Assembly: GCA_026770705.1 (NCBI GenBank)
Contig: JANJGN010000013.1
Span: 58,714,001-58,778,000, forward strand
Direction: 5' to 3'
DNA length: 64,000 nucleotides
From: Isurus oxyrinchus
Taxonomy: Eukaryota
Position 1 is the stretch's first letter; every line of letters starts with the position of its first letter. Position numbers and translations under genes: made by a program. Below, piece after piece: positions 4,510 to 63,653 of the stretch. The notes under the pieces were generated by a model that was not told the DNA's origin, did no database searches, and saw only the letters and a list, made by a program, of their open reading frames with translations.

Positions 4510-4813
4510 TCACATACAACTGGATCTTGAGATGCTTGAGCGAAACGGGTTTGCTTGAGTCTCGTGTTTAACCAGACAAGAGTAAAGCTCGTGTGAGTTC
4601 CAGTCTGAGGCTGACAGAGTCAGATAACTGCTCACACTGAACGTGTTGTCTGTCTGCTGCTGGATCCGACTGGTCTCAACCCCATTACCTCTGACACTGC
4701 CATCGACAGTCTATTCAATCTCCACAGCTCCCGGCTTAAAACCGCTCACCAAACACACCAGGGTCGCCGTGTTTTTCGCTGTGGAAGGAGAGAGACAGAT
4801 GGTTCCTGTGGGT
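4510..4813 (-). pseudogene. Ig lambda C exon C1, frameshifted
   Basis: Motifs [36 protein letters not shown]...SYLTLSASDWNSHELYSCLVKHETQANPF...SSCM match the shark lambda C as I recall it. A 19-nt deletion near 4783 (304 nt vs 323 nt for C4) shifts the frame, and the conserved Trp is TAG at 4711-4713. Confidence 0.93.
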
Positions 4814-5319
4814 CTGTTTAAAACAAAACTAAGTTAAGAGGTGTTGGGGGAATTGCCTTGATTGAACGCATGAGATTTTTTTAAAACACTACAATTCGAA
4901 TTCTGTCATTCATTAAATAGATGAAATAGACCCCTTTGATTCGCGCGGTCTTCCGAGGAAGGCTGAAGGAAGGAGATTGGTAGGACGTTTGGAACTGAAA
5001 GAGCGAACTTAGGTTTCAATGGCTGACTGGAGTTGGGTCTGTTCAATTTTATAGTCAGCAAAAAAATACGCGCACAGTTTATTTGGCATTGTCGCTCCTG
5101 AACGATATAACACATTTCTTTGCTGTTAATATATTGCTGACAATATGAGGGTCATTATGTAGCTGCTGTGTCTCCACACTCAGACGCTGCTGCCACGAAT
5201 AATTATAAATAGATTTAGAAGCACGTTAAATTTGATGAAATGCTGATTAGCTTTGCAAAGGGTTTACTGATTAACCTTTTTCTTATACCCTGAACAGTGT
5301 AGGTGTACTTGCTCCCGTA

Positions 5320-5530
5320 CTTCTCCCCTCTTGAATCAGATGGTTTCAACACCACGCCGGAAACTGACCTCGCAACCTAGACTGAAATTCCAGCCACGTG
5401 AATGTGGCTCGGGCCGTTCTGACAGCTTTTGGATAAGAATTAAACCGAAATCCTCGTCTGATTGACCTAAATTACTCTATTGCAGTATTGGAGGAAGTCG
5501 CGCCAGGCTGTTCTCATTGTGTGAAAGCAG
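5320..5530 (+). repeat. Degenerate SINE (Deu-domain/SacSINE-like) in the J-C intron
   Basis: GGTTTCAACACCAC...TTGGATAAGAATTAAACCGAAATCCTCGTCTG resembles the Deu core as I recall it. Copies at ~25180-25390 and ~38445-38655; inverted relatives at ~1800-1945, ~34600-34730 and ~55950-56075. Confidence 0.4.
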
Positions 5531-7039
5531 ATTAACCAGTGATTCCTCGCACTGCTGCATGTGGGAAATAGATTGCGGAGATCATTATGAGGATCTCATT
5601 AACACAAAATCTTTCCGCCAACGCTCTGGCATGTTTCGGATAGAGTCCGTGAAATAAAGGCAAAATAATTATCTGTATGAGTTTTGTCCTTCAGTGTTGC
5701 GTGGTCTGTAAGAGGAGCCGATGGGGGAAATCTTAACTTTGTGCAACAGTGTAAAACTAATTGACCAAGTTAAACTGCACGCGCACATTACTTGTATGAA
5801 AGATATAGATTTGTTTAGATCTAGAGCAAGGGTTAGCGCCAAAAGAATTTGGGCGAATTTGCTTCCATCATTAAAGTCGAAAGCGTAACAATTGAATATG
5901 ATCAACACTATTAATACAACGGAATTGTTACTTTGAGTCACATTCTGATTTCTCTGATTACTGGTCTGTGCATCGAAATTACCAACAACTCAGGTTCGAT
6001 TTCAGCAGCAGAAATAACACAAAGTTTCTGTCCAAGGTCGCATGCTTAATACACAGGGCAATCTGACAATGTGAATAGTTCGAGCACAATGAAAGAATTT
6101 AGTAATGCCACTGATCTCATGTTCACACATGTTCATCTTAGTTTTAAAAAGACTCTGCGCTGACGTGGAATTTGGCATTACAGAAGGGACCAGGAGTTGA
6201 CTCGCTGTATAACTGCAAACCCGCAAGCGCTTAATCAGAGATGTATAAATGCCTTATTTATGGGCAGCTTTGTGAATTCGACCCCTTACATAGGTTGCGC
6301 CACATTTAACCAACGCACAATAAATGAAATGTTTCCCCACTGCGCGGCCATTCATCATGTGCGTTCAGTTTAACGCAGTATTCGGACTGAATTTCAGTTG
6401 TTACTCAAAGCCGCTATAGTCAGTAGAAGAATAGTTTCAGCTAAAAACCTAATAAGGAACTCAGAGCGCAGAACATTGAAGGTTCAATTTAACATCCATT
6501 TTTAACCTTTCTTTGCTCTTCCGGTTCTGAAGGGAGAATTGAAATGGGCTGATGTTTGGCCATGTCCATTATTTCAAGTAGCTGGCGCAAGTGCTCATTA
6601 TCTATTTGTGCCAACAGGCACGGCGTTTTGGAAAGGTATTGGAAGGGAAGCAATACCATTGTTATCAATCGTGTGGTTACTGGTCATTTTCTTATTTCCC
6701 TGCAAGGTCACTCGATGTTGGATTATGATTAAAGATTCTGACTGATTACCCCGTTCTATGGCGGAGAGATTCTGAGGCGGTTGGTTATTGTGACTGGGGC
6801 AATACAGCTCATTACAGACCAAAACTCCATTCTGAACTCACAGAAAATATTATAGAACTGGAAAGCTCAGATTTTAACTACTTACCAGGGGTAGTCTTGC
6901 ATTATTTAAATTTAATTAATGGTGCTATTGTTAAAAGGGCATTAAAATTGCTGCGAAATAAAATAACTAGTCACCTATTTTATTTACTTCTTAACCTGAA
7001 GCACGCTTTGAACAATATATCCGAAATGGTTTTACTCAC

Positions 7040-7387
7040 TGCCAACACCCAGTTCGGTTCCTTCACCGAAGTTGTACATGCTGTTTTTCCATATAGCACA
7101 ATAATAGTCCGCGCCATCCTCCGATTTAACGTTACTAATAGTTAACGTTCCCGTGTTGCCGGATACCGAGCCAGAAAACCGGTCGGGAACACCGGAGGCT
7201 CTGTGCGTGCTGCTTCCAGAATAATAATAAAGCAGATACCGAGGAGCATTTCCAGATTTCTGCTGGTACCAATATATGTTGCTGCTTCCTAAAGTGGCAC
7301 CGGACAAGGTGCAACTTATTTGGACGATTCCTCCGAGAGAAGTCGATTTCGAAGGCGGTTGATTTACTGTAATGTCCGCGTTTGAAA
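7040..7387 (-). CDS. Germline-joined VJ exon of Ig lambda (type II/NS3) light chain, open reading frame intact
   Basis: Acceptor TTTTCTTGCAG, then (V)SNADITVNQPPSKSTSLGGIVQISCTLSGATLGSSNIYWYQQKSGNAPRYLL...GVPDRFSGS...[27 protein letters not shown], then donor GTGAGT. Both Cys, WYQQ, YYC and FGxG are present. V and J are contiguous with no RSS, and the leader intron is retained, so it is not a retrocopy. Confidence 0.95.
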
Positions 7388-7517
7388 CTGCAAGAAAATG
7401 GCATAAAAATGTGGGTGTAAATTGGTCAAACTATTGAGTTTTAACTCCCGTGAAATATCATCCAAAAATACTTCCTAAAGGCGCCTTTACAGTAAATCTA
7501 CGTTTTAAAATACTCAC

Positions 7518-7566
7518 CTGCCAGGCAAAAAATGAACACAGTGATTGCATGGACGCAGTCAGTCAT
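7518..7566 (-). CDS. Ig lambda (type II) light-chain leader exon, cluster A1
   Basis: Reverse complement reads MTDCVHAITVFIFCLA plus one G (49 nt, phase 1), followed by donor GTGAGTA. Hydrophobic signal peptide; paralog at 40685-40733. Confidence 0.93.
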
Positions 7567-7642
7567 TGTGGAAAGTTTAACGAGCCACCGAAGTACTGAC
7601 AGATCTATGACAAGATGGGTTAGCTGTCGGAATCTCTCTGTT

Positions 7643-7651
7643 TTTTAATAA
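7643..7651 (-). promoter_or_regulatory. TATA-like box of cluster A1 (octamer lost)
   Basis: TTATTAAAA on the minus strand about 80 nt upstream of the ATG, next to an E-box (CACCTG); conserved at ~40812-40826. Confidence 0.5.
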
Positions 7652-7809
7652 CACCTGTCTTCAAGAAGGTGTTAAAAACAAAAAAAACTGCGGATGCTGG
7701 AAATCCAAAACAAAAACAGAATTACCTGGAAAAACTCAGCAGGTCTGGCAGCATCGGCGGAGAAGAAAAGAGAGGAGAGAGGAGAGGAGAGAGTTGACGA
7801 AACGTTAAA

Positions 7810-9159
7810 ATGGCAAGCGACATCCCCCACCAGGATGGTCTGAGGGCCCTTAGCTTCTTCCTCGAACAGAAGCCCGAACAATCCCCATCCACCACTACTC
7901 TCCTCCGTCTGGCTGAACTTGTTCTCACGTTGAACAATTTCTCCTTCAACTCCTCTCACTTTCTCCAAATAAAAGGTGTGGCTATGGGTACCCGCATGGG
8001 CCCCAGCTATGCCTGTCTCTTTATGGGATATGTGGAACATTCCTTGTTGCAGTCCTACCCCGGCCCCCTTCCACAACTTTTTCTCCGGTACATCGATGAT
8101 TACTTCGGTGCCGCTTCATGCTCTCGTCGGGACTTGGAAAAATTTATTAATTTTGCTTCCAATCTCCACCCCTCCATCATTTTCACGTGGTCCATCTCTG
8201 ACACTTCCCTTCCCTTCCTTGACCTCTCTGTCTCAATCTCTGGTGATAGACTGTCCACCAATATCCATTACAAACCCACCGACTCCCACAGCTACCTCGA
8301 CTACAGCTCCTCACACCCCGCTTCCTGTAAGGACTCCATCCCATTCTCCCAGTTCCTTCGCCTTCGTCGCATCTGTTCCGATGATGCTACCTTCAAAAAC
8401 GGTTCCTTTGACATGTCCTCCTTCTTCCTTAACCGAGGTTTTCCACCCACGGTCGTTGACAGGGCCCTCAACCGTGTCCGGCCCATCTCCCGCGCATCCG
8501 CCCTCACGCCTTCTCCTCCCTCCCAGAAACATGATAGGGTCCCCCTTGTCCTCACTTATCACCCCACCAGCCTCCGCATTCAAAGGATCATCCTCCGCCA
8601 TTTCCGCCAACTCCAGCATGATGCCACCACCAAACACATCTTCCCTTCACCCCCCTTATCGGCATTCCGTAGGGATCGCTCCCTCCGGGACACCCTGGTC
8701 CACTCCTCCATCACCCCCTACTCCTCAACCCCCTCCTATGGCACCACCCCATGCCCACGCAAAAGATGTAACACCTGCTCCTTCACTTCCTCTCTCCTCA
8801 CCGTCCAAGGGCCCAAACATTCCTTTCAAGTGAAGCAGCATTTCACTTGCATTTCCCCCAACTTAGTCTACTGCATTCGTTGCTCCCAATGTGGTCTCCT
8901 CTACATTGGAGAGACCAAACGTAAACTGGGCGACCGCTTTGCAGAACACCTGCGGTCTGTCGGCAAGAATGACCCAAACCTCCCTGTCGCTTGCCATTTT
9001 AACACTCCACCCTGCTCTCTTGCCCACATGTCTGTCCTTGGCTTACTGCATTGTTCCAGTGAAGCCCAACGCAAACTGGAGGAACAACACCTCATCTTCC
9101 GACTAGGCACCTTACAGCCTTCCGGTCTGAATATTGAATTCAATAACTTTAGGTCGTGA
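7810..9159 (+). CDS. Penelope-like ORF: C-terminal part of RT plus GIY-YIG endonuclease (449 aa, uninterrupted)
   Basis: Motifs QIKGVAMGTRMGPSYA, RYIDD, HYKPT, CPRKRCNTC, NLVYCIRC..CGLLYIGETKR, R..EH and GLN. It begins at IPHQDG, after the RT motif-A aspartate. Confidence 0.88.
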   Translation: MASDIPHQDGLRALSFFLEQKPEQSPSTTTLLRLAELVLTLNNFSFNSSHFLQIKGVAMGTRMGPSYACLFMGYVEHSLLQSYPGPLPQLFLRYIDDYFGAASCSRRDLEKFINFASNLHPSIIFTWSISDTSLPFLDLSVSISGDRLSTNIHYKPTDSHSYLDYSSSHPASCKDSIPFSQFLRLRRICSDDATFKNGSFDMSSFFLNRGFPPTVVDRALNRVRPISRASALTPSPPSQKHDRVPLVLTYHPTSLRIQRIILRHFRQLQHDATTKHIFPSPPLSAFRRDRSLRDTLVHSSITPYSSTPSYGTTPCPRKRCNTCSFTSSLLTVQGPKHSFQVKQHFTCISPNLVYCIRCSQCGLLYIGETKRKLGDRFAEHLRSVGKNDPNLPVACHFNTPPCSLAHMSVLGLLHCSSEAQRKLEEQHLIFRLGTLQPSGLNIEFNNFRS

Positions 9160-9547
9160 GCTCCCTCCCCCATCCCCACCCCCTTTCTGTTTCCCCCTTT
9201 TTTCCCCTTTTTTTTCCCTATAAATTTTATAGATTTTTCTTTTCCCACCTATTTCCATTATTTTTAAATATTTTAAAATCTTTTATGCTCCCCCCACCCC
9301 CACTAGAGCTGTACCTTGAGTGCCCTACCATCTATTCTTAATTAGCACATTCGTTTAGATATCACCAACTTTAACTTTAACACCTATGTGTTCTTTTGCA
9401 CCATTGTCACTGACATCTTTTGATGATCTGCTTCTATCACTGCTTGTTTGTCTACACAAGCACCTCTGTCTCTCTCTCTCTCTCCGCCCCCCCACACACA
9501 CACCTTAAACCAGCTTATATTTCAACTCTTTCTTGGACTCGAAATCA

Positions 9548-9586
9548 AGTTCTGTCGAAGGGTCATGAGGACTCGAAACGTCAACT
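9548..9586 (+). ncRNA. Minimal hammerhead ribozyme-like motif in the pLTR (variant core)
   Basis: AGTT-CTGTCGA-A-GGGTC-ATGAG-GACTC-GAAA-C-GTC-AACT: stem I AGUU/AACU, stem II GGGUC/GACUC, GAAA box, palindromic ACGU in place of helix III, and a GUC cleavage triplet. Present in about 10 copies. Confidence 0.7.
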
Positions 9587-10070
9587 CTTTTCTTCTCCGC
9601 CGATGCTGGCAGACCTGCTGAGTTTTTCCAGGTAATTCTGTTTTTGCTTTGGATTTCCAGCATCCGCAGTTTTCTTTGTTTTCACATTGTGTAAATGTTT
9701 TGACTTCATTTTCCTGGTGAAAGCGATTTGAACCATAGAAACATACAGCACAAAATGATGCAATTTAGCTCCCCATTCTTTGCCTGATCTATGAATGAAC
9801 GACCCAATTCGCCCTGCACCTACATTTCTCAATGTTTCGGGTTGAGGGCTAGGGGACCAGGCTTCCCCACATTCGCCCCGACACAATCAAAGAAGCATTT
9901 CAGAACTTGGGTGTTAATCTAAACTATTTCCACCACAGGTCAGCCATGACACCAGAAGGCAGCCTTTAAGGAGCAATCGGGAAATTAGGAGACGGAAAAA
10001 GAGTAAAATGTGGGTGAAGAAGGGCACCAACTGCCGAGAGAGTTGGAAGAATCAGGCACTGGCTTTTCTT

Positions 10071-10245
10071 AAAAACAAAAAAACTGCGGATGCTGGAAAT
10101 CCAAAACAAAAACAGAATTACCTGGAAAAACTCAGCAGGTCTGGCAGCATCGGCGGAGAAGAAAAGAGTTGACGTTTCGAGTCCTCATGACCCTTCGACA
10201 GAACTTGAGTTCGAGTCCAAGAAAGAGTTGAAAATGCTGGAAATG
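10071..10245 (-). mobile_element. Short Penelope pLTR insertion
   Basis: pLTR 3' end flanked by the 12-bp duplication CTGGCTTTTCTT (10059-10070 / 10246-10257); empty site at ~41500. Confidence 0.85.
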
Positions 10246-11149
10246 CTGGCTTTTCTTCTTCTACTAGATGAAAGTTCGATGGAATCCAGGGACATTCACG
10301 TCCGCTCTTGGCTGGGAATGCAGCCAGCTGGCGCACACTAACCCCCGACAGCATCACCCACCACCCTGCACCCTCCGTGCATCTCCAGTCCACCTCAAAT
10401 CAGAGGTAGAGTCACCCAGATCACGTCAAGCCGGTAGTCAAATTCCACCGGAGTGAATGAGTTCTTCCAGTCAGATTGTTGGGAACACTCCCTGGGAGGG
10501 TGGAGGATGTGAGACCAGCAAGAAGGTGGCCTTGGAATGGTGAGTTCATGGGCGGTGGATCAGCGAAGAGCAGACTGGAGAGTTCGTCTAGACTTTGGGC
10601 CTAAAATGGGCACCTCGAAGCAGCAGGGGATTGAATTCCATTCACTCCGAACTCCTCTTTAACTTCCTTCCCAAAACATGTGACAATTACCGTTGTTTCT
10701 CGTTTGTTGGTTTAAAATCTGTTATTCCTGACAAGGGAAACTTTTTGTGTCAGAGTTAAACTTTTATTTAACTTCAGTTTGTAAAGTTGACTAAAACTTT
10801 AAAGCATTTCTAAAGTTTCTGGTGAAAGATAATCGACCTGAAACGTTTAAATTTTAAATTAATTTAGCCTAATATTCTAATATTCTGCAACGCTCATCTT
10901 TATTTTTATCGTTTTGAAAAATATTCGTGTAAATAGCTGTTGAAATTTCTAAGGAGGCTTCCTATTGTAAGAAAACAATATTGTAATTAGAATGTGCTTC
11001 TTAAGATCTTTTTTGTCAAATTTGTCTGAAATTTCTGGACATAGTTTACTTTTTTCAGGCGTGTGCAGTTATTTATAAAATTTTTCACTTAAAGTAATGA
11101 AATATTTTTGTGATACAACAGTGCCTTTCTCTTCCCGGTGTGATTACAA

Positions 11150-12500
11150 TGGGATGTTTTTGGGTAAAATGCTGAGCCACAGGCTGTCCTCTGACCGTGC
11201 ATTCCGCAATGCCGCCACTTAACTTTTGATCCAGCGCTTGCAGCAGAATGACTTTTTGCCTCTAATGGCTAGTTCTCTGCATATCAAAATCCAGGCTTTC
11301 AACATTGACAGAGTTGTGTGGGCTGCAGCACGCTACAGTGATCTTCACTACCGGCTCTCGGGTGTATTGGGGGACACCGTCAAACTTGTTCATGCACCAG
11401 AAGTGACTTCTCAGCACGCTATTGGTTCTCGCAACAACCTGCCTGAATTTTTTTTTGGAAAAATATACGTTATTCATCAAATATCTGAAAGAACGTTGCA
11501 AGACATTTTAAATGGTTGTCACAAAGTTGCAATCAGGCTCATCTTTTACACATGGATCACGAGGTGCTTCAATGCAATCAATGAATTTTACAGTCATTTC
11601 AATATGGTATTCCAGGCAATCAGAAAGTGCAATGATATTGGAGTTATCGACATACGTTCTGTTGCACTCTGAGGTGCTTCAATACAATTATAATACATTT
11701 AGCATTCACTGCCTGCATTCATTTTGAGTCGTACAACCAAAGGTCCGTATACATTTCCCAACCCCTAGGTGCGCTATAACTGAAAAGTCTTAAACAGCGA
11801 CTTTTCCCCATTGCAACTTCGTGGCAGCTGCTTCAAGCTTTAGTGCGTCCCTCAGCAGGTAGCCCTGGGTCCTGGAATGTGCCAGTCTGCAACACTCGGT
11901 CAGAGACCATTCTTTGCACTGGAAGAGCAACAAGTTTAGGGCAAGCCAAAGAGCGTCACCGAGTTGATGACCTTCCAGCTACAGTTGATGTTTGTCTCGG
12001 TGTGTGTCCCCAAGAACAGCCCGTAGAGCACACAGTCCTGTGTCACTGCGCTGCTCGGGATCAACTTCGACAGAAACCACTGCATCTCTCTCCAAACCTT
12101 CTGTGCAAAAGCACATGCCATAAGGAGGTGAACAACGGTCTCTTCCACACCACAGCCACCTCGAGAGCAACGTGCAAAGGGGGTGAGACTCCAGGCGTGT
12201 AGAAAGGGTCTGACGGGGAGGGTCTGCCTCACCACCAGCCAAGCTACATCTTACTGCTTAGTGGAAAGTTCTGGCGATGAGGCATTCTGCCAAGTGACTT
12301 AGGCTGCCTGCTCAGGGAACCATCCGACAGGATCCACCATCTCCTTTTCGCCAAAACCTCTAGGGCGTTATATGCCGGGCACTGCCTGATGGACTTGCGG
12401 TCAAAGGTATCAACAACCTGCCTATTAGATACCTTGACCTGATATTGCAATCCTCCCGTTTCTGTCTGTGTGTGTGTTGCAAAAAAAAGCAGCAAGCGAC
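11150..12500 (-). mobile_element. Degenerate Harbinger transposase C-terminus, interrupted by the Tx1 element
   Basis: RQVVARTNSVLRSHFWCMNKFDGVPQYTREPVVKITVACCSPHN resembles the HARBI1-type motif ERTFGxLKxRFRCL...IxACCxLHN. An uninterrupted paralog lies at ~28960-29370. Confidence 0.7.
11445..12410 (-). mobile_element. Tx1/L1-clade LINE, 3' fragment
   Basis: C-terminal zinc-knuckle region (GCGVEETVVHLLMACAFAQKVW), 3' UTR and an A9 tail (11448-11456), with a 13-bp TSD CAACAACCTGCCT (11432-11444 / 12411-12423). Confidence 0.85.
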
Positions 12501-12514
12501 AAACTTTAAACTAA

Positions 12515-12652
12515 GATAAAAACAAAGAAAACTGCGGATGCTGGAAATCCAAAACAAAAACAGAATTACCTGGAAAAACTCAGCAGGTCTGGCAGCATCG
12601 GCGGAGAAGAAAAGAGTTGACGTTTCGAGTCCTCATGACCCTTCGACAGAAC
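12515..12652 (-). mobile_element. Short Penelope pLTR insertion
   Basis: Runs from the hammerhead 5' boundary to the pLTR end; short AACTAA duplication; empty site at ~43740. Confidence 0.85.
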
Positions 12653-13046
12653 TAATATGCATATTATTCCCATTAATCCTAAGCATGCACATCTTGTAAC
12701 TACTACAGTGCTGCAATGCTCAGAACTGGGCCTAGGCGATTCATATTCTATATTTATGGCTTAAACGCATAGACCGAGGCTAAAGTAAGTTTGCCGATGA
12801 TACAACGCTAGATTGGAATGTAAGCAATGAGGAGGAGAGCACAAAGATGCTGCAAAGACATATAGAGAGATTTAGAGTGGACAACAAAATGGCAGATGGA
12901 ATATGGTAGTAAGAATAGGGAAGCAGAATATTTATAAAAGCATGAAAATTCTGAATGAAGGATTTCAGTGGATAGGATCAGCTGCTGGAAACGCACCGGG
13001 ATTGGATTCCTCAAATCTAATCTCAAAATATTCAACTACTGTTGGA

Positions 13047-14340
13047 TCAAATTAAAAATGCGCAAATGTTTGTCATTTTCTGCACAGATGGGGTCATTCG
13101 CTCGTTCAAAAAACATTCTTTCCTACTCCCTAAACTGTCAAAATTACTAAATTGGACCTGACATGCCTCCTGTGTTAGATGATTCCCTGGAACTTGTGTT
13201 TCCATATTAGCAGATCCCTCATCACTTGTCGCTTTGGACTCCTGTGTCACAATTTCTTCAACTGTACCCACAGCATCAGCTTCACGCAGTCTCTCTCAGA
13301 TGTCGTGATCCGACTATCACAGATTTCCCTTTCTTCAACAGCCTGAATGTGAACAAAGGAGTCACGGCACCCCCACACCTGCCACAGACACCGATTGTGC
13401 ACCCTGCTCCTTCATTGGATGATACTGATCTTCCTCCTCCATCACAGTTTCAATATCGCCCTCCTCAGAAACTCTCAGTGCTGTTCCTTCAGCAGCACCG
13501 CTTTCCGTACATTCAGCTGCTGCCATTGACTCACAGGCATCACTAACTAATGTGTCCAAGGACACCTATGAATCTGTCAGAGGAAAATATTTGCTATTAT
13601 TTGTCGCATGAAATAAACTTCCCTGCTCATACATGGTTTAAACATTCAGTTAATGACATCTCTTTTGTGCATTCCAGCATTAGAATGAGCCCTAGTTAGT
13701 CTAGGGTTAGTGATCCTCAACAGTTACCTGCTGAAATCCTCAGTGTTCAGTGAGATCATTTAGGAAAGTACCATCACCCCCAGGAGAAGCAGCGCTTCTC
13801 TCGTGTGAAAAATGCAAAATGAAGATCTTGGTTTCTCGCTATTTCGTCTTATGACACACTTTACAATTACTGGAGACAGTTTTAATAATACTAACAACAA
13901 ACTGAAGAGTGCACTCTGTGAGGATGAAGACTAAGCATAATCGTTGATGGCAAGGCCAGCACTATCTCCAAGCAATTGAATTTTATGACACTTTATTAAA
14001 TGAGGAACCATCCTCACCTCATAATCTTTTAAACTTTCAACTTTTAAATCAAGATATAAATTTAAAAATGAATAGCATGCATTCATCTACATTTCCTGAC
14101 AGAATGACCAAGTCATGGAATTTCTTTTATGGCAATGTTGTCCCGTGCATGACACTATTTGCAGTCACTGCCTGTGCTACTTACTTCCAGGCTAAGGTTC
14201 TGATTTTCCTTGGCAGATTTCAAATGTGCATTACCGATGATGCGGGAATGTCTCGTTTCAATTTCACTGAGAAGAATTTTGAGGTCTGCGCCCGTGAAAT
14301 TATGACACCTTTTTTTCTCATTCACATCCTGCACTGTCAC
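13047..14340 (-). mobile_element. Degenerate Myb/SANT-like (Harbinger ORF2-type) remnant
   Basis: KKRCHNFTGADLKILLSEIETRHSRIIG is typical of the N-terminus of Harbinger Myb/trihelix proteins; acidic low-complexity ORFs follow. Paralog at ~44170-45454. Confidence 0.55.
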
Positions 14341-31314: not shown

Positions 31315-31625
31315 AAAACAGAAAATGCTGGAAAAACTCGGCAGGTCAGACAGCATCTGTGGAGAGAAAAATAGAGTTAACGTTTCATGTGCGTATGACT
31401 CTTCTTCAGAGCTAAAGAGAAGTAGAAATGTGATGAAATTTTACTACAACAGGCCGAAGGAGACAAATGGAAATCCTGTCAGAGAGAAGAGCAGCACTTC
31501 TTCAAGATAGGCATTCTTGGAAGAGAAGTCGCAGTGAATTAAACACTAAAGTAAAAGCAAAATACTGTGGATACTGGAAATCTGAAATAAAAACAGAAAA
31601 TGCTGAAAACAGTCGCCAGGTCTGC
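31315..31625 (-). mobile_element. Older Penelope-like fragments with a canonical hammerhead core
   Basis: The reverse complement contains CTGAAGA-AGAGTC...GAAACGTTAACTC (~31374-31413); 31465-31590 resembles the pLTR/ORF-start junction at 60700-60830. Confidence 0.65.
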
Positions 31626-32665: not shown

Positions 32666-32907
32666 AGATAAAAACAAAGAAAACTGCGGATGCTGGAAAT
32701 CCAAAACAAAAACAGAATTATCTGGAAAAACTCAGCAGGTCTGGCAGCATCGGCGGAGAAGAAAAGAGTTGACGTTTCGAGTCCTCATGACCCTTCGAAA
32801 TCAAGTTCTGTCGAAGGGTCATGAGGACTCCAAACGTCAACTCTTTTCTTCTCCGCCGATGCTGCCAGACCTGCTGAGTTTTTCCAGGTAATTCTGTTTT
32901 TGTTTTG
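32666..32907. mobile_element. Hairpin (inverted pair) Penelope pLTR insertion
   Basis: Two opposed pLTR ends flanked by the 14-bp TSD TCATTGAAATCCAA (32652-32665 / 32908-32921); empty site at ~102-115. Confidence 0.9.
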
Positions 32908-37078: not shown

Positions 37079-37508
37079 AGATAAAGACAAAACAAAACTG
37101 CGGATGCTGGAAATCCAAAACAAAAACAGAATTACCTGGAAAAACTCAGCAGGTCTTGCAGCATCGGCGGAGAAGAAAAGAGTTGACGTTTCGAGTCCTC
37201 ATGACCCTTCGACAGAACTTGATTTCGAGTCCAAGAAAGAGTTGAAATATAAGCTGGTTTAAGGTGTGTGTGTGGGGGGGCGGAGAGATAGAATATCACT
37301 GCTTGTTTGTCTACACAAGCACCTCTCTCTCTCTCTATCTCTCCGCCCCCACACACACACACCTTAAACCAGCTTATATTTCAACTCTTTCTTGGACTCG
37401 AAATCAAGTTCTGTCGAAGGGTCATGAGGACTCGAAACGTCAACTCTTTTCTTCTCCGCCGATGCTGCCAGACCTGCTGAGTTTTTCCAGGTAATTCCGT
37501 TTTTGTTT
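37079..37508. mobile_element. Hairpin Penelope pLTR insertion inside C3
   Basis: Inverted arms of ~170 bp; 14-bp TSD AGGAGTAAAGCTCG (37065-37078 / 37509-37522). Confidence 0.9.
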
Positions 37509-37575: not shown

Positions 37576-37713
37576 TCAACAGAACTCAGTTCTGTTGAAG
37601 GGTCATGAGGACTCGAAACGTCAACTCTTTTTTTCTCCGCCGATGCTGCTGAGTTTTTCCAGGTAATTCTGTTTTTGTTTTGGATTTCCAGCATCCGCAG
37701 TTTTTTGTTTTTA
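37576..37713 (+). mobile_element. Short Penelope pLTR insertion inside C3
   Basis: 13-bp TSD TCACACTGAACGT (37563-37575 / 37714-37726); begins with the mini-hairpin TCAACAGAACT-C-AGTTCTGTTGA. Confidence 0.88.
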
Positions 37714-50900: not shown

Positions 50901-53565
50901 TTTGGAAAATGTGGCCTGCCCACCTGCCCATTTAGCCCATGCAACGGCCTGAAAATTGCTGTGACTACATAAACAATGAGACAATTGTCTCAAAAACTGA
51001 CCACTTAATTAATGATGGGCATGCATCCGTCTTCAACTTCCACCCACCTAACGAAATATTGCGAGAGTGTGCGTTGATGTCAGCATGCTCAGCTGACGTC
51101 AATCTGCTTTATTTTCCACTCAGACATAGAGGGTGCACGTCCTAATGCTGAGCTAAAAATTCTGCCTGTGGTGACAGAAGCTCTGTTCAGGTGGGCACTG
51201 ACCTTTATTCTTTACCATGCAGACGAGGCCAGCCAGACTGAGTGAGCCAGAGGATTTTCAGCGATTGCTGGGTTACCTGCATCCATAGTGCAATTGACTG
51301 CACAGATGTGGCCATCAAAGCCCCAGCAGGTCAGCGGGGTGCCTTCATCAACAGGAAAGGATTCAACTCCATGAACGTGCAGATCATCTGTGACCACAAG
51401 ATGCAGATTCTGCAAGTCTGTACAAGGTACCCTGGCAGCTCCTATGATGCTTATATCCTAACACAATCCCAGGTGCCGAGCCTTTTCAGTGCTCCAGCAC
51501 AACTGGATGGATGGCTGCTGTCTGACAAGGGCTATCTATTGAAAAGGTGGCTTATAACAGCTCTCCACCACCTAAGAACAGAGGCAGAGCAGTGTTATAA
51601 TTGAAGTCATGCCTCCACAAGGGCGGTGATAGAGAGGACCATAGGTCTTCTGAAGATGCGCTTCCTTAACTGTTCAGAGGGAGAACTACAATACTCCCCA
51701 GAGCAGATGTCACTGATAGTGGTTACATGCTGCACTCTCCACAATCTGGCTCTGACAAGGGGAGACCCCTGCCTCTCCATGGCCAGCTGACTGAGGTGGG
51801 ACTTGTTGCGCCAGCTACAAGGCATCCATCTACTACCTCATCAGAATGAGGAGGTTTGGGGGCCTCACCCTGTCTTAGCTCTTTTGTTGGTGTTATGGCT
51901 TCTCTTCTACTGAAGTGCAGAGGAGCATTGATTTGTCTACTCTCTACCCGCAGCAACAGTGCAGCCTAGCAACCACACGCACCCCACCCAGGGCACCTTA
52001 TAGGGCACATCTGAGTCATGGCCCTTGAGCTGCAAGGCACTCAGGCCAAGCAGCCAGTTGTCACCTCCTTGGCCGGCTCTGGTGTCAATGACAGTTGGCA
52101 CTCAGACTCTGTAATCCTGAGCTTCATGGGTAGGTGGCCAGTCCTTAACACTTCTCCACACTGATCCATGCCAACTTGGTACTCACCTTTGCTGAGTGCA
52201 GCAGCAGGTCCTTGAACCTTTTGAGGCACTGCACCCTTGTGCGCCGCACAATGTTGTGGCTGCTGACTTCGGCTGCCACCTCCTCCAAGGCTTTTTTGTT
52301 CAGATGCAGTGGCCTCCTCCTGCCAACCCTGAGTACGAGAGTCCAGCCTGACAACAACCTCCTCCACAAGGACCGTGAGGCACCCGTCCAAGGGCAGAAT
52401 ATGAAGCTCGGTGGGCGGGTGTGTGACTGATCCGGCCAAGTGTAAAATGACGCACAGGAACGTCAGGTGAGTGTCACGACATCATCAGGTAGTCCTGCGA
52501 TATTTCATTCAGCAGGCGTGTGCCAGAATCATCAGCACACATGCTGACAATTAAAATAAAAACAAAGAAAACTGCGGATGCTGGAAATCCAAAACAAAAA
52601 CAGAATTACCTGGAAAAACTCAGCAGGTCTGGCAGCATCGGCGGAGAAGAAAAGAGTTGACGTTTCGAGTCCTCATGACCCTTCAAGTTCTGTCGAAGGG
52701 TCATGAGGACTCGAAACGTCAACTCTTTTCTTCTCCGCCGATGCTGCCAGACCTGCTGAGTTTTTCCAGGTAATTCTGACAATTAAAATACCTGTTAATG
52801 CCTTGAAAAGGGTGATTAAATTCAAATTGATGCTGCCCGTCCAACCTTACGGTTGGTGGACAGACGTAAAGGCCAAGCAGCCTTTACACTTTTTAGGAAA
52901 CTTCATCCAAGGGCGGGATGAGGTTTCCTACAGCAAATAGAAATCAAAAATAAATTTTGCACTTGAATTAAAAACATGCCCCTGTCCATGTGACGGAGTC
53001 ACATAAGGGGACATGTTTTATGACACTTTTAGTTACTTTTTTTAAACAGCACTTCATCTCCCTGAGGCAGCTCTGCACAAAGTTCACGCTCCGCCCGCTT
53101 CCCCTCCCCCACAGGCAGCCCTCAGCGCTGCCGCTCGCATTTCATGCTGAGCAGGCCTTAATTGGCCCACCAGCGTGAAATCGTGGTACGATGCCGATCA
53201 CGGCGGCCGTCGGTGTATTGAATGCCCCCACTGAGCCAAGAAACGGTGGGGCCGAGCGCCCGCCTGACTTATCCGCCCTCCTGACGTTTTCAGCCGCTGG
53301 TGAGGCCCTTGTTTGAACGAAATGGTCTCTGGACAGACTGCAAACATTCTCCCTAGCAGCTGGCTCTGCTGGTTTTAAAGCGCCTGCTGGGTCGCCATTG
53401 GACCCGGCGCCCTACAGGTTCCCGCCCACAGCCAGCCCTTCCCGCAGAGGACGGACCTTAATTAGCCATCCGGCGTGAAATCATGTGCAACGTGACCACG
53501 GCCAGGAACAAACTCCACATCCGCTTCCGCCGACTTAACGCGCATGCCAAGCGTGAATTCGGGTC
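47919..53565. mobile_element. Nest of PIF/Harbinger DNA transposons (second repeat unit)
   Basis: Plus-strand transposase 49063-49520 continues at 51168-51780 (AIDCTDVAIKAP...FINRKGFNSMNVQIIC...DKGY) and is split by an inner element at 49521-51167 with a minus-strand transposase. Minus-strand Myb/SANT at ~52180-52390 (RRTRVQCLKRFKDLL). The right end is approximate. Confidence 0.88.
52559..52775. mobile_element. Hairpin Penelope pLTR insertion
   Basis: Opposed pLTR ends flanked by the 15-bp TSD CTGACAATTAAAATA (52544-52558 / 52776-52790). Confidence 0.9.
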
Positions 53566-53819: not shown

Positions 53820-55055
53820 CTCCCTCCAGGTGTTTGACAAGGTGTTTGCTAAAACTCACTTTCCCAGCCATATTTTCTTGCTCAGCAACTCTCTGACTTA
53901 ACCCACGTGGATTCCAACTGAAGTTCCATCCCTCATTTTTCGAATCCACCCAGGATTACAGGTATCTTTGGGGCATACAACATTCCAGGACCCCCTGGTC
54001 CACTGCTCCATCACCCCCAACTCCTCATCCCTTTCCCACAGCACCATCCCATGCAATCACACAGATGCAACACCTGCCCCTTTACCTCCTCCCTCTCACC
54101 GCCCAAGGGCCCAGACATTCCTTTCAGGTGAAGCAGTGCTTCACTTGCACCTCCTTCAATTTGGTTGATTACATTTGCTGCTCCCAATGCAGTCCCCTCT
54201 ACATTGGGAAGACCAAACACAAACTGGGTGACCACTTTGTGGAACACCTTCAGCTATCCACAAGCATGACCCAGACCTTTCTGTTGCTTGCCATTTCAAC
54301 ACACCTTCCTGCTCTCATGCCCACATGTCTGCCCTTGGCCTGCTGCAATGTCCCAGTGAAGCCCGACGCAAACTGAAGGAACAGCACCTCATCTTGCAAT
54401 TCTGCACTTTACAGCCTTTTGGACTTAGTATTGAGTTCAACAACTTCAGACCATGAACTCTCTCGTCTATCTACACCCCGTTTTTATCCCTTTTCCTAAA
54501 TTCATTTTTATTCATTATTCACTTATTTTTAATGTTAGTCATTTTTATTTTCATTCATTTATTCATAACTTTATCTTCCTTTTTATCCCCCCTTCTTATC
54601 CCATTTTCAATCCCTTATTCCCCCACCGCCCGTCCCCCCTACTCCACCCCACAAGGGCCATCTGTTACTTGTTCCTGTTGTTCTTTTCAGAGTGCTTACC
54701 CTTGTCTTGCTATTGTCACATTCTGCTTTCATACCTTTATGCCACTATCAGCACCTTTTTAGCCTTTACCAATACCATTAACACTCCCTTTGTCCTTTTG
54801 TTTATGACACCTTTGTCAATCTCTCCTTTGCCCCACCTATTGCTGGCCTTCTATCCAGCTCTCCCTCCCCCCTCCCTTAAACAGTATAAATTTCAACACG
54901 TTTCTACTTCTCTCTAGCCCTGAAGGAGGGTCATACAGACTCGAAACATCAACACTGTTTCTCGCTCCAGAGATGCTGTCAGACATGCTGAGTTGTTTTC
55001 CAGCATTTTCCACTTTTGTTTCAGGTTTCCAGCATCTGCAGTATTTTGCTTTTAT
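53820..55055 (+). mobile_element. Older, internally deleted Penelope-like element
   Basis: The ORF N-terminal piece (VFDKVFAKT...) is joined at ~53980 directly to the GIY-YIG part (CSQCSPLYIGKTK), followed by a pLTR with a hammerhead motif at ~54917-54953. Degenerate TSD TCCTT(C/G)AACAT. Confidence 0.8.
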
Positions 55056-57301: not shown

Positions 57302-60300
57302 TGAAGATGCAGAAAATTTGGATTTATTTTAAAGTGTTAGCCAGGACCAGAGCACCAAAGCATACACAATAACAGCCTTACATGAAAGCTAAAAACTTCT
57401 ACAAAGGGCTCAGCTGTAAATTTGCAATTAGGAAATGGGAGACACACGGACGGGGACACGGAATAACTCAATCAAGGAATGGGGAAAAAAAATAAAAACA
57501 AAAAAACTGCGGATGCTGGAAATCCAAAACAAAAACAGAATTACATGGAAAAACTCAGCAGGTCTGGCAGCATCGGCGGAGAAGAAAAGAGTTGACGTTT
57601 CGAGTCCTCATGACCCTTCGACAGAACTTGAGTTCGAGTCCAAGAAAGAGTTGAAATATAAGCTGGTTTAAGGTGTGTGTGGGGGGGGGGGGGGGGGGGG
57701 CGGAGAAAGAGAGAGAGAAGTGGAGTGGGGGTGTGGTTGTAGGGACAAACAAGCAGTGATAGAAGCAGATCATCAAAAGATGTCAACAACAATAGAACAA
57801 AAGAACACATAGGTGTTAAAGTTGCTGATATTATCTAAACAAATGTGCTAATTAAGAATGGATGGTAGGGCACTCAAGGTATAGCTCTAGTGGGGGTGGA
57901 GGGAGCATAAAAGATTTTAAAATATTTAAAAATAATGGAAATAGGTGGAAAAAGAAAAATCTATATAATTTTTTGGAAAAAAAAGGAAGGGGGAAACAGA
58001 AAGGGGGTGGGGATGGAGGAGGGAGCTCAACACCCAAAGCTGTTGAATTCAATATTCAGTCCGGAAGGTTGTGCTTAGTTGGAAGATGAGGTGTTGTTCC
58101 TTCAGTTTGCGTTGGGCTTCACTGGAACAATGCAGCAAGCCAAGGACAGACATGTGGGCAAGAGAGCAGGGTGGAGTGTTAAAATGGCAAGCGACAGGGA
58201 GGTTTGGGTCATTCTTGTGGACAGACCACAGGTGTTCTGCAAAGTGGTCGCCCAGTTTACGTTTGGTATCTCCAATGTAGAGGAGACCACATTGGGAGCA
58301 ACGAATGCAGTAGACTAAGTTGGGGGAAATGCAAGTGAAATGCTGCTTCACTTGAAAGAAATGTTTGGGCCCTTGGACGGTGAGAAGAAAGGAAGTGAAG
58401 GGGCAGGTGTTGCATCTTTTGCGTGGGCATAGGGTGGTGCCACAGGAGGGGGTTGAGGAGTAGGGGATGATGGAGGAGTGGACCAGGGTGTCCCGGAGGG
58501 AGCAATCCCTACGGAATGCTGATAGGGGGGGTTGAAGGGAAGATGTGTTTGGTGGTGGCATCATGCTGGAGTTGGCGGAAATGGCGGAGGATGATCCTTT
58601 GAATGCGGAGGCTGGTGGGGTGATAAGTGAGGACAAGGGGGACCCTATCATGTTTCTGGGAGGGAGGAGAAGGCATGAGGGCGGATGCACGGGAGATGGG
58701 CCAGACACGGTTGAGGGCCCTGTCAACGACGGTGGGTGGAAAACCTCGGTTAAGGAAGAAGGAGGACATATCAGAGGAACTGTTTTTGAAGGTAGCATAA
58801 TCGGAACAGATGCGACGGAGGCGAAGGAACTGAGAGAATGGGATGGAGTCCTTACAGGAAGCCGGGTGTGAGGAGCTGTAGTCGAAGTAGCTGTGGGAGT
58901 CGGTGGGTTTGGAATGGATATTGGTGGACAGTCTATCACCAGAGATTGAGACAGAGAGGTCAAGGAAGGGAAGGAAAGTGTTAGAGATGGACCACGTGAA
59001 AATGATGGAGGGGTGGAGATTGGAAGCAAAATTAATACATTTTTCCAAGTCCCGATGAGAGCATGAAGCAGCACCGAAGCAATCATCGATGTACCGGAGA
59101 AAGAGTTGTGGAAGGGGGCCGGAGTAGGACTGCAACAAGGAATGTTCCACATACCCCATAAAGAGACAGGCACACCTTTTATTTGGAGGAAGTGAGAGGA
59201 GTTGAAGGAGAAATTGTTCAGCGTGAGAACAAGTTCAGCCAGACGGAGGAGAGTAGTGCTGGATGGAGATTGTTCGGGCCTCTGTTCGAGGAAGAAGCTA
59301 AGGGCCCCTTTACCATCCTGGTGGGGGATGGAGGTGTAGAGGGATTGGATGTCTATGGTGAAGAGGAAGCGGTTGGAGCCAGGGAACTGGAAATTGTTGA
59401 TGTGACGTAAGGTGTCAGAGGAATCACGGATGTAGGTGGGAAGGGACTGGACAAGGGGAGAGAGAAGGGAGTCAAGATAATGAGAAATGAGTTCTATGGG
59501 GCAGGAGCAAGCTGAGATGATTGGTCTACCAGGGCAGTTCTGTTTGTGGATTTTGGGTAGGAGATAGAAGCAGGCCATCCGAGGTTGGGCGACTATCAGG
59601 TTGGAAGCTGTGGGAGGAAGATCCCCAGAGGAGATGAGGTCAGTGACAGTCCTGGAAACAATGGCTTGATGTTCAGTGGTGGAGTCATGGTCCAGGGAGA
59701 GGTAGGAGGAAGTGTCTGCGAGTTGATGCTCAGCCTCCGTGAGGTAGAGGTCAGTGCGCCAAACCACAACAGCATCACCCTTGTCAGCGGGTTTGATGAT
59801 AATGTCAGGATTGGACCTGAGAGAATGGAGTGCTGTAAGTTCAGAGAGAGACAGGTTAGAATGGGTGAAAGGAGCAGAGAAATTGAGACAACTAATGTCA
59901 CGCCGACAGTTCTCAATGAAAAGATCAAGAGAAGGTAAGAATCCAGAGGCAGAGGTCCAGGTGGAGGGAGAATAATGGGGATGGATAAAAGAATCCGTTG
60001 AACTGGGAGAGGACTCCTGCCCAAAGAAGTGAGCCCAGAGATGAAGACAGCGGAAGAAGAGTTCAGCATCATGCCGAGCCCGAAATTCATTGAGGTGAGG
60101 GCATAAGGGTATGAAACTAAGTCCTTTGCTGAGCACTGAACGTTCAGCATCAGAGAGGGGAAGGTCAGGGGGTATAGTGAATACACGGCTGGGGCTGGGA
60201 TTGGAAGATGGGGTGGGCATGGAGGGACAGGCAGAGGTGGAGGGTCCTAGATGGGTGTTGGTGTCGATGAGTTGTTGGAGCTTGCGTTCCTTAGCACTTG

Positions 60301-60998
60301 AGAGAAAGAGAAAAAGTTTCTTGTTGAGGCGTCAGATGAGCCGAAGAATAAAATGAAACTGGGGGCACGCGCAGCTTTGAAAAAGGGTACGGCGGTGCTG
60401 CTGGAGGGAGAGATTGAGTGTGTTCATATGGCGGCGCATGGCACTGAGTGTGCATTTCAGAATGTGACGGGAACAGCAGTCTGAGAAACATTTTATGTCC
60501 CGGAGATACCTGTAATCCTGGGTGGGTTCGAAACATGAGGGGTGGAATTTCAGTTGAAATCCACGTGGGGTAAGTCGGAGACGGAGACAGTCACTGAGAA
60601 AGGAGATATGGCTGTGAAAGCGGGTTTTAGTAAACACCTTGTCAAACACCAGGAGGGAAATGGAAAGCAATGAAGGTGAGCAAGGCAAAAGAGAGGTACG
60701 GAAATCTTGTCGCAGAAAAGAACAGAACTTCTTCAAGGAGGTAGGCATTTCTTGAAGAGCAGTGGCAGTCAATTAAACACAGAGATAAAAACAAAAAAAC
60801 TGCGGATGCTGGAAATCCAAAACAAAAACAGAATTACCTGGAAAAACTCAGCAGGTCTGGCAGCATCGGCGGAGAAAAAAAGAGTTGACGTTTCGAGTCC
60901 TCATGACCCTTCAACAGAACTTGAGTTTGAGTCCAAGAAAGAGTTGAAATATAAGCTGGTTTAAGGTGTGTTGGGCGGGGGGGGTGGGGGGGGGTGCG

Positions 60999-61029
<31 letters not shown>

Positions 61030-61904
61030 GGAGGGGTGGTGTGGTTGTAGGGACAAACAAGCAGTGATAGAAGCAGATCATCAAAAGATGTCAACAACAA
61101 TAGAACAAAAGAACACATAGGTGTTAAAGTTGCTGATATTATCTAAACGAATGTGCTAATTAAGAATGGATGATAGGGCACTCAAGGTATAGCTCTAGTG
61201 GGGGTGGAGGGAGCATAAAAGATTTTAAAATATTTAAAAATAATGGAAATAGGTGGGAAAAGAAAAATCTATATAATTTCTTGGAAAAAAAAAGGAAGGG
61301 GGAAACAGAAAGGGAGTGGGGATGGAGGAGGGAGCTCAACACCTAAAGTTGTTGAATTCAATATTCAGTCCGGAAGGTTGTAAAGTGCTTAGTCGGAAGA
61401 TGAGGTGTTGTTCCTCCAGTTTGCATTGGGCTTCACTGGAACAATGCAGCAAGCCAAGGACAGACATGTGGGCAAGACAGCAGGGTGGAGTGTTAAAATG
61501 GCAAGCAACAGGGAGGTTTGGGTCATTCTTGCGGACAGACCACAGGAAATGGGGAAGGCCATTTCGCTCCATCTGATAGCCATCTTCAAAAAAGACAATG
61601 CCCAGTCTCTGCACTGCAATTACTGTACAGGAACACAATTATCAACCCATGGGGGGTGGGGGGGGGGGGGGGAGTGCGGCGTGCGGGGTGTCATTGGGCA
61701 TTGGGCTGTGGCCTTTGTCTAACGAATACCATTAAGTTGTAACTGATAGTAAAAGATATATAAATTCTGCTCATTTGAAACCTCGGTGGGGAAGGGCCTG
61801 GCCCAGCGTTTGCTCCCCGCATGCGTAATAAAGGAACCACTTGAATATTGCATCTGGACCCCGAGTGTTGAAATTTTGTACCAGAGTATTCCTCGGACCT
61901 TTCA
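57302..61904 (+). mobile_element. ERV-like solo LTR (~530 bp) split by the Penelope insertion
   Basis: Ends TGAA...TTCA with a 4-bp TSD CACC/CGCC; two ATTGG boxes (~61693-61704), TATATAAA (61757-61764) and AATAAA (61827-61832). The flanks rejoin to match empty sites at ~3190 and ~36020. Confidence 0.72.
57487..61546 (-). mobile_element. Near full-length Penelope-like element with partial-tandem pLTR structure
   Basis: An upstream partial copy (GIY-YIG end plus pLTR, ~60785-61546), an ORF from ATG 60748 to 58049 (IIIKPADKG, FYLLPKIHK, PGRPIIS, YIRDS, RYIDD, GIY-YIG) with one stop, a ~31-nt deletion and frameshifts, and a downstream pLTR. Flanking duplication AATGGGGAA (57478-57486 / 61548-61556). 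Confidence 0.93.
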
Positions 61905-63395: not shown

Positions 63396-63530
63396 AATAT
63401 AATAACAAAAAACTGCGGATGCTGGAAATCCAAAACAAAAACAAAAATAAAAATACCTGGAAAAACTCAGCAGGTCTGACAGCATCTGCAGAGAGGAACA
63501 CGATTAACGTTTCGAGTCCGTATGACTCTT
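63396..63530 (-). mobile_element. Short Penelope pLTR insertion in the C4 3' UTR (related subfamily)
   Basis: 10-bp TSD CAACTGCAAT (63386-63395 / 63531-63540); the insert is truncated inside the hammerhead motif. Confidence 0.85.
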
Positions 63531-63653
63531 CAACTGCAATGGCCATTTGCTTAAATCTCCGAAATGCAATCAATTTCTCCCGTTTTTGTCACATGAAAGA
63601 AATTAATAGGAATGAACAAACATTCTCAGCTGAGTCAAGTACAGTTTGCGAAA

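What the first reader, a model, noticed from the sequence alone, without database searches (positions are those of the whole stretch)
9548..9586. Young Penelope family carries a hammerhead ribozyme with a fixed non-canonical core (CUGUCGA, A6->U)
Seen: the young pLTR copies (e.g. 9548, 10167, 12615, 37180, 37407, 52686, 57588) share AGUU-CUGUCGA-A-GGGUC/GACUC-GAAA-C-GUC-AACU; those at 30100, 37588 and 60882 have CUGUUGA. Older relatives keep A6: CUGAAGA at ~31405 and CUGAAGG at ~54920. Known: Penelope-like elements encode minimal hammerheads that lack helix III and are thought to cleave as dimers through a palindrome (ACGU here); A6 of CUGANGA is normally near-invariant. Inference: the family that spread most recently did so with an altered core. 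It is either a new active variant or an attenuated fold kept for another role.
Basis: partly seen in the sequence, partly recalled or inferred. Interest (0 to 1): 0.72.

Follow-up and report, generated by a model that had tools for sequence, protein, structure and literature searches.

The report
Jumping-gene ribozyme with mutated core
About 100,000 copies of a young, intact jumping gene in this (probably shark) genome carry a small self-cutting RNA motif in which one normally fixed letter changed long ago, which likely slows cutting, yet the element kept multiplying, so fast cutting is probably not needed for it to spread.

Summary
Observation confirmed and extended. The 39-nt motif is a minimal hammerhead fold in the pseudo-LTR of a Neptune-type Penelope-like element. 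Genome-wide, the exact CUGUCGA form occurs 60,876 times against 78 with A6, which is mutation background. All intact 918-aa elements examined carry U6. Correction: U6 is not new to the youngest family. It arose from a CUGAUGA ancestor, first as CUGUUGA, and persisted through about seven subfamilies (10-13% change at synonymous sites). Side branches carried C6, and three organisms share U6. After A6U, changes fell on positions a hammerhead leaves free (4 of 7 against 1 of 31), but the core alone (0 of 12) is not significantly conserved. No copy starts at the predicted cut site; 25 of 104 start at the 5' edge of helix I. Real A6 revertants are predicted to misfold, which would confound the proposed revertant assay. 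Best reading: a slowed hammerhead whose fast cleavage is dispensable. Cleavage is untested. I found no U6 natural hammerhead in print (one key paper was not held); A6C is known. The scan noted this motif before elsewhere in this genome (e1-9904347) and an A6C form in another genome (e1-9834341).

The parts
9548..9586 (+). Minimal hammerhead fold with U6: helix I 9548-9551/9583-9586; core 9552-9558 (U6 = 9555, C7 = 9556); extra A 9559; helix II 9560-9564/9570-9574; GAAA 9575-9578; ACGU palindrome 9578-9581; predicted cut after 9582
   Evidence: sequence; numbering as in PMC4209133
7821..9684 (+). 5'-truncated young Penelope-like element, 98.5% identical to an intact unit; open frame to 9159 with RT motif YIDD, CX4CXXC linker and GIY-YIG; the motif lies in its 3' pseudo-LTR
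9587..9684 (+). Conserved downstream part of the pLTR and optional ~35-nt tail; probable reverse-transcription start region (inferred from PMC11167929)
   Evidence: two classes of 3' end seen among copies
7671..7772 (-). Inverted pLTR stub at the 5' end of the same insertion (lacks the hammerhead core)
10167..10205 (-). CUGUCGA copy in a solo pLTR (10069-10233) with a 12-bp target duplication; absent from the duplicated segment
12615..12653 (-). CUGUCGA copy in a solo end that starts at helix I; absent from the duplicated segment
30100..30138 (+). CUGUUGA copy of an older U6 subfamily (AACUUUG type)
32804..32842 (+). CUGUCGA copy with G12>C, in a fold-back pair (32652-32907)
37181..37219 (-). 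CUGUCGA copy, head-to-head partner of 37407
37407..37445 (+). CUGUCGA copy
37588..37626 (+). CUGUUGA copy starting at helix I
52686..52724 (+). CUGUCGA copy in a fold-back pair (52559-52778)
57495..61546 (-). Full-length but frameshifted element (57495-60952, 93.8% to intact unit) with an upstream partial tandem copy; motifs at 57590-57628 (CUGUCGA) and 60883-60921 (CUGUUGA), 3,293 nt apart
63404..63536 (-). Decayed copy of the oldest U6 subfamily (GAGUC helix II, GUU triplet)
31375..31413 (-). Older A6 relative (CUGAAGA), helix II damaged
54916..54954 (+). Older A6 relative (CUGAAGG, decayed) at the end of an old element fragment (53817-55045)

Best explanation
The motif is the minimal hammerhead of a young, intact Penelope-like retrotransposon in which core position 6 changed from A to U in an ancestral subfamily and stayed so, which likely slows self-cleavage without abolishing the fold, while the element likely copies itself from uncut RNA and so tolerates the loss. 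Shown: the anatomy, the link to intact RT-GIY-YIG frames, fixation of U6, the subfamily series CUGAUGA > CUGUUGA > CUGUCGA, C6 side branches, and copies that read through the cut site and start at the 5' edge of helix I. Inferred: reverse transcription starts in the tail 70-100 nt downstream of the cut site and must cross it; two motifs about 3.3 kb apart would pair through ACGU; cleavage would be slow and probably helped by the element's protein; the rest of the core is probably kept by selection for that residual activity or fold; and reversion to A6 is now disfavoured because, after U7>C and U17>C, A6 would complete a 5-bp helix that hides the palindrome and the cut site.
For: 28 of 28 listings of a motif behind a full 926-codon frame have CUGUCGA (overlapping loci repeat some elements); 20 intact frames differ by a median 0.25%. 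Revertants sit at mutation background: A6 78, G6 about 50, U6 60,876, and 13 of 14 head-to-head partners of A6 copies have U6. Series and ages. From the first to the youngest U6 subfamily, 4 of 7 free sites changed against 1 of 31 constrained sites, the one being A-U to G.U (Fisher p=0.002), while 18 of 181 non-CpG four-fold sites of the frame changed. C6 was carried by templates: 8 of 30 C6 copies against 0 of 30 U6 copies share one upstream type (p=0.005), and 5 of 10 partners also have C6. 0 of 104 U6 and 0 of 58 A6 copies start exactly at the cut site; 25 of 104 U6 copies start 31-40 nt before it, none of the 25 an alignment artefact. Cost to free the core: U6C7 1.6, real A6C7 copies 5.4 kcal/mol (n=25 and 14). 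In print: A6C is natural, weak and Mn2+-preferring (PMC3088659, PMC7151607); CUGA-turn single mutants show low activity (PMC9901934); an anole PLE hammerhead needs its protein to cleave and dead mutants still insert in vitro (PMC11167929).
Against: No cleavage data, and no published A6U rate that I could read. Conservation is not significant against the neutral rate: constrained 1 of 31 against four-fold 18 of 181, p=0.20; core alone 0 of 12, chance 0.28. The first A6U step raised, not lowered, the predicted cost of opening the core (1.65 to 2.57). The 39-mer folds no better than shuffles (z 0.06), and in a 185-nt context helix II of the young form is hardly predicted (P 0.03). The C6 enrichment did not reach significance in a second sample alone (5 of 22 against 1 of 20, p=0.19). 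A6 families also lack starts at the cut site, so that test does not tell U6 from A6; a cut-and-circularised template would also leave no such starts. The tree does not resolve the base of the U6 lineage.
Confidence: 0.5

Rival explanations
1. The motif no longer cuts. Its sequence is kept for another job at the 5' end of the transcript: an RNA structure bound by the element's protein, or DNA promoter elements just behind the start site.
For: Copies pile up at the 5' edge of helix I, as expected if the RNA begins there; PLE promoters lie in the pLTR (PMC6765202, section 11). Position 6 took U and C. [quoted passage not shown]
Against: The changes that did occur fall on N7, loop II and H17, the sites that hammerhead catalysis leaves free, and H17 moved from U to C. 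A promoter or binding role would not predict that pattern.
Confidence: 0.25
2. The motif is a dead relic that is drifting; too little time has passed since A6U for the other core positions to change.
For: Neutral change along the lineage since A6U is only 10-13%, so 0 changes at 12 core sites has a chance of 0.28, and 1 of 31 is not below the neutral rate (p=0.20).
Against: Free sites changed at 4 of 7; about seven successive subfamilies keep both helices and all other core bases. In contigs of three organisms the variants listed inside the motif are at CpG, loop, N7, H17, one G.U-compatible helix II site and one low-share helix I site (lists cut).
Confidence: 0.13
3. U6 is a fully active variant: the dimer, the element's protein or Mn2+ makes up for the lost A6 contacts, and cleavage plus ligation gives a 3.3-kb circular template.
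For: All other core bases are intact, the triplet is GUC, and U6C7 has the lowest predicted cost of opening the core among U6 forms (1.6 kcal/mol). Tandem arrays with ~3.33-kb spacing exist. A6C cleaves well in Mn2+ (PMC7151607). The circle model is in PMC4209133.
Against: No compensating change accompanies A6U: ancestor and first U6 family differ by that one letter in the 39-nt motif. No rescuing double mutant of the CUGA turn other than the C3-G8 swap was reported (PMC9901934, passages). Linear-looking 5' ends lie upstream of the cut site, not at it.
Confidence: 0.12

Closest known systems
Minimal type-I hammerheads (min-HHR) in pLTRs of metazoan Penelope-like elements (Cervera and De la Pena 2014, PMC4209133)
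   Same: Position in the pLTR, short helix I, 5-bp helix II with G10.1-C11.1, extra base between 9 and 10.1, no helix III, palindromic ACGU, NUH triplet.
   Different: Core is CUGUYGA. All representative motifs that I read in their Fig. S3 (parts 1-2 of the supplement) have A6, though their search descriptor demanded it; the core variant they describe is U3-A8. No cartilaginous fish is listed.
A6C hammerhead of phage Bcep176 (Perreault 2011, PMC3088659; Naghdi 2020, PMC7151607)
   Same: Natural substitution at core position 6; the CUGCUGA core also occurs here in 1,854 copies.
   Different: One phage locus with a full three-helix fold, tested in vitro (weak in Mg2+, good in Mn2+). Here mainly U6, in a helix-III-less motif, fixed in about 100,000 copies of a retrotransposon, untested.
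PAc (Poseidon, Anolis carolinensis) hammerhead (Frangieh 2024, PMC11167929)
   Same: pLTR hammerhead upstream of the reverse-transcription start and tail; no sign of ends at the cut site (their RNA-seq, my copy boundaries).
   Different: PAc cleaves when its protein is present, its motif overlaps the start codon and it belongs to the Poseidon clade; here the motif lies about 170 nt before the first methionine and the protein has the Neptune/Nematis linker.
Neptune/Nematis EN+ Penelope-like elements (Craig 2021, PMC8557442)
   Same: One frame with RT, Zn-finger-like linker and C-terminal GIY-YIG; partial tandems, inverted 5'-truncated copies, 30-40-nt tail.
   Different: Canonical hammerheads are described as universal in these clades; this lineage lost A6.

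Membership tests
PLE minimal hammerhead (min-HHR) | Lies in the pLTR of an RT + GIY-YIG element | tested here: met
PLE minimal hammerhead (min-HHR) | Helix I and helix II with G10.1-C11.1 | tested here: met
   4 and 5 bp; on 12 hand-picked related copies 92% of cells pair, with a G-C/A-U swap at 10.1-11.1 in 3 of 12 and almost no covariation in helix I
PLE minimal hammerhead (min-HHR) | Extra base between 9 and 10.1; no helix III; palindromic 15.1-16.1; NUH triplet | tested here: met
   A at 9559, ACGU at 9578-9581, GUC
PLE minimal hammerhead (min-HHR) | CUGANGA core with A6 | tested here: not met
   U6 in 60,876 against A6 in 78 copies; hence filed as a derived variant, not as a canonical member
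PLE minimal hammerhead (min-HHR) | Self-cleavage as a dimer | not testable with these tools
   only assembled contigs were offered, which show no RNA ends
Neptune/Nematis EN+ PLE | Single frame, RT then C-terminal GIY-YIG | tested here: met
   918 aa; RVT_1 E 7e-8, GIY-YIG E 9e-4 (below its curated cut-off)
Neptune/Nematis EN+ PLE | CX2-5CXXC linker between RT and endonuclease; DKG motif | tested here: met
   CPRKRCNTC at 784, DKG at 322; feature from PMC8557442
Neptune/Nematis EN+ PLE | Partial tandems, inverted pLTR, tail | tested here: met
Neptune/Nematis EN+ PLE | Placement in the RT tree with named clade members | not tested
   no reference PLE proteins were fetched
Position-6 variant hammerheads (Bcep176 type) | Weak in Mg2+, active in Mn2+ | not testable with these tools
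   needs kinetics
Metazoan non-LTR retrozyme | Non-coding short tandem units each with a hammerhead | tested here: not met
   tandem units are ~3.33 kb and coding; the short copies seen are solo or fold-back ends

The most novel reading that the evidence does not exclude
Selection favoured braking the ribozyme. Cleavage would remove the RNA's 5' cap and cut off the tail where reverse transcription starts, so a lineage that lost A6 outlasted its A6 sister and became the genome's dominant active element, keeping the rest of the core as a slow or protein-gated switch. Later changes at 7 and 17 locked the brake in. Loss of A6 recurred (C6 side branches here, C6 reported in another shark-like genome), making position 6 a natural rate dial in vertebrate Penelope hammerheads.
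Probability: 0.2. Interest if true: 0.75.

Novelty: new variant of a known kind. Interest (0 to 1): 0.47.

Why it matters
What the hammerheads of Penelope-like elements do is an open question: they are near-universal, cut poorly, and were dispensable in the one in vitro system. This genome holds a natural series of ancestral and derived cores (A6U7, U6U7, C6U7, U6C7) attached to an intact, near-identical, high-copy element, so rate can be set against proliferative success directly. It also shows that searches demanding CUGANGA miss about 100,000 motifs in one vertebrate genome, so hammerhead counts and claims of absence in PLE clades may be too low.

Tried and rejected
Rfam scan: no hammerhead model matched; the 10 hits are below gathering score and mostly microRNA models matching fold-back junctions. 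CUGUUGA as mere CpG decay: rejected. A spreading A6-revertant subfamily: rejected. My first idea, that U6U7 pairs with U16.1-C1.3: rejected, P at most 0.03; the competing helices are others (UGAYG/CGUYA in A6 forms, UGUU/AACG in U6U7). A6U as an unmasking gain when it arose: not supported. C6 as a single clade: not supported, C6 copies are scattered along the tree. Position-6 letters read from BLAST offsets were unreliable and are not used; one search replaces them. One search counted at least two copies twice and is superseded. Cluster consensus for group 8 shows A6 only because I fetched 30 rare A6 copies on purpose. RNA ends and expression: only contigs, most of them only guessed to be RNA, so no evidence. 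No solved structure matched the protein. Look-ups of earlier findings by sequence and near the window were empty. Lunse et al. (PMC5785218) and Scott et al. (PMC4008931) were not held, so whether position-6 variants appear there is open.

Full report
1. The observation. The motif is at 9548-9586 as described. With positions 6, 7 and 9 left open, 17 window sites match at up to 3 mismatches against 5.5 expected; the 11 perfect matches all have U at position 6, 8 as CUGUCGA and 3 as CUGUUGA. The two A6 relatives are real but decayed. No Rfam hammerhead model matched. The genome is 4.98 Gb; that it is a shark is recalled resemblance and earlier AI notes, and no call names the organism.

2. The element. 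The 9548 copy is in the 3' pseudo-LTR of a 5'-truncated element (7821-9684, 98.5% to an intact unit) with an inverted stub at its 5' end. A protein search scored 94 of 194,516 candidates, all without a stop and 99-100% identical. In 20 stretches fetched around full 926-codon frames and 30 search loci, all 28 listings of a motif behind such a frame are CUGUCGA, and tandem units repeat every ~3.33 kb (some elements are listed twice). Twenty intact frames differ by a median 0.25%. [quoted passage not shown]

3. Fixation. Exact 31-mer counts are 60,876 for U6C7, 78 for A6C7 and 257 for C6 or G6, of which about 50 are G by the first 100 listed. A6 is thus at the level of another transversion, and 13 of 14 head-to-head partners of A6 copies carry U6. 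A looser pattern finds 100,283 non-A6 motifs. In 964 kb not chosen by motif (80 spaced 10-kb stretches, 10 stretches beside the window, and the window), 55 motifs split into 39 U6, 2 C6 and 14 A6, the A6 ones far more diverged. Contigs of three coded organisms show no other letter at 9555 at 3% or more or in the cut list at 1%; the 80% likeness filter favours young copies.

4. History. U6 is old. A CUGAUGA family (1,847 exact copies) differs from the first U6 family (4,956 copies with a near relative) by that one letter in the motif. CUGUUGA with the AUGAG loop has 13,486 copies against 1,809 for the opposite-strand CpG control, so it is a subfamily state. Of 367 copies, 238 fell into 12 groups and 129 stayed unclassified. 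A tree on the last 1.1 kb of the frame (39 rows: 7 of 56 young copies and 32 older ones) is a ladder from A6 outgroups through CUGUUGA to CUGUCGA, but its base is unresolved, so a single origin of U6 is likely rather than shown. Median divergence from own consensus is 4.7% for the A6 ancestor (n=6), 3.4% for the first U6 family (n=14, partly best hits and so low), 1.6% for a middle one (n=5) and 0.2% for the youngest (n=55, mostly chosen as intact). Position 6 also took C: 1,854 copies, enriched in one upstream type (8 of 30 against 0 of 30, p=0.005; 5 of 22 against 1 of 20, p=0.19, in a second sample), with C in both arms of 5 of 10 pairs against 1 of 14 for A (p=0.05). They do not form one clade.

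5. Selection. Between first and youngest U6 consensus, 4 of 7 free sites (N7, loop II, H17) changed against 1 of 31 constrained sites, an A-U to G.U change (p=0.002). Four-fold sites changed at 18 of 181 (26 of 200 with CpG). Constrained sites are not significantly below that rate (p=0.20), and 0 changes at 12 core sites has a chance of 0.28. Helix II shows a compensatory swap against the oldest family and helix I next to none, on 12 hand-picked related copies. The pattern fits continued selection on a hammerhead fold but does not prove it.

6. Footprint of cleavage. Among copies not chosen for the motif, 0 of 104 U6 and 0 of 58 A6 copies start exactly at the cut site (2 and 3 within 2 nt), whereas 25 and 12 start 31-40 nt upstream, at the 5' edge of helix I. 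All 25 U6 cases are true boundaries, 10 of them fold-back junctions, with four insertions counted from both arms. Integrated copies therefore come from templates that are continuous across the site: uncut RNA, or a religated circle. Earlier notes of this scan (e1-9883823, e1-9838315) led me to this test and to reading the pile-up as the RNA's start.

7. Folding. The 39-mer is no more stable than shuffles. In real copies, A6 forms close a helix between the core and CGUYA; U6U7 forms close UGUU/AACG; U6C7 breaks both. The cost of freeing the core is 1.65 (A6 ancestor), 2.57 (first U6), 1.64 (U6C7) and 5.43 kcal/mol (real A6C7 copies) in the short context, and 3.75, 3.64, 4.16 and 6.24 in a 185-nt context, where helix II of the young form is hardly predicted. 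So A6U gave no folding gain when it arose, but reversion is now predicted to be costly, and the fold probably needs help.

8. Mechanism. Most likely (0.5) a slowed hammerhead: A6U removes core contacts (inferred from A6C data), the element reverse-transcribes uncut RNA from the downstream tail, and residual, perhaps protein-assisted, dimer cleavage or folding keeps the rest. Rivals: non-catalytic role (0.25), drifting relic (0.13), fully compensated variant (0.12).

9. What is in print, and what I saw. PMC4209133: main text parts 1-2 of 4 and supplement parts 1-2 of 3. PMC11167929: parts 1-2 of 4. PMC7151607: parts 1-2 of 4. PMC3088659: passages and section 8; it cites an earlier mutational study for low activity at position 6, which I did not read. 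PMC9901934: passages and supplement list only, no per-variant values. PMC6765202: passages and part of section 11. PMC8557442, PMC6155905, PMC12192606, PMC3846280: passages. bioRxiv 10.64898/2026.07.22.740005: part 1 of 5 and passages, supplements not seen. Eight searches showed no report of a natural U6 hammerhead or of hammerheads in shark PLEs in their listings. Lunse et al. on small PLE hammerhead variants was not held and may bear on novelty.

10. Verdict. A real, fixed, long-lived core variant of a known ribozyme in a known element class: new variant of a known kind, interest 0.47. The scan had noted the same motif on another piece of this genome (e1-9904347) and an A6C form in another genome (e1-9834341, not checked). 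What this report adds is the subfamily series, the C6 side branches, an honest limit on the selection signal, the boundary test and the warning about the revertant control.

Noticed in passing
window 100-18600 and 32900-49700: A tandem segmental duplication at 83-89% identity. The young insertions at 7671-9684, 10069-10245 and about 12519-12653 are missing from the second copy, so they postdate it.
   Followed up: partly
window 7671-9690 against 40842-41126: Where the young element sits, the duplicate holds about 280 nt that include an old pLTR stub (41079-) and are absent from the first copy: deletion on insertion, or a separate insertion at the same spot.
   Followed up: no
window 26338-28026 (+): Intron-less, broken ubiquitin-specific protease sequence (UCH and Ubiquitin_3 hits), probably a processed pseudogene.
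   Followed up: no
L006-L035, motif at 1500: Many of the rare A6 copies sit right at fold-back junctions with a U6 partner (10 listings with a U6 partner within 160 nt), which suggests error-prone junction formation.
   Followed up: partly
L059-L061, L259-L271 (group 2b): An extinct A6 sister subfamily shows the same two changes (GAGUC to GGGUC, GUU to GUC) as the U6 line: convergence or exchange between co-active masters.
   Followed up: no
window 31397-31413 (-) and L036-L064 (group 1): The older CUGAAGA family has AGCU opposite AACU, a mismatch in helix I, so imperfect hammerheads occurred in this lineage before A6U.
   Followed up: partly
window 9531-9547: The youngest subfamilies gained a second GGACUCGAA just upstream of the motif, a repeat of the helix II-GAAA strand that could pair with GGGUC instead.
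   Followed up: no
window 49276-50851: Inverted copies of a frame resembling a Harbinger-type transposase fragment (resemblance recalled; no Pfam hit for the one frame scanned).
   Followed up: no
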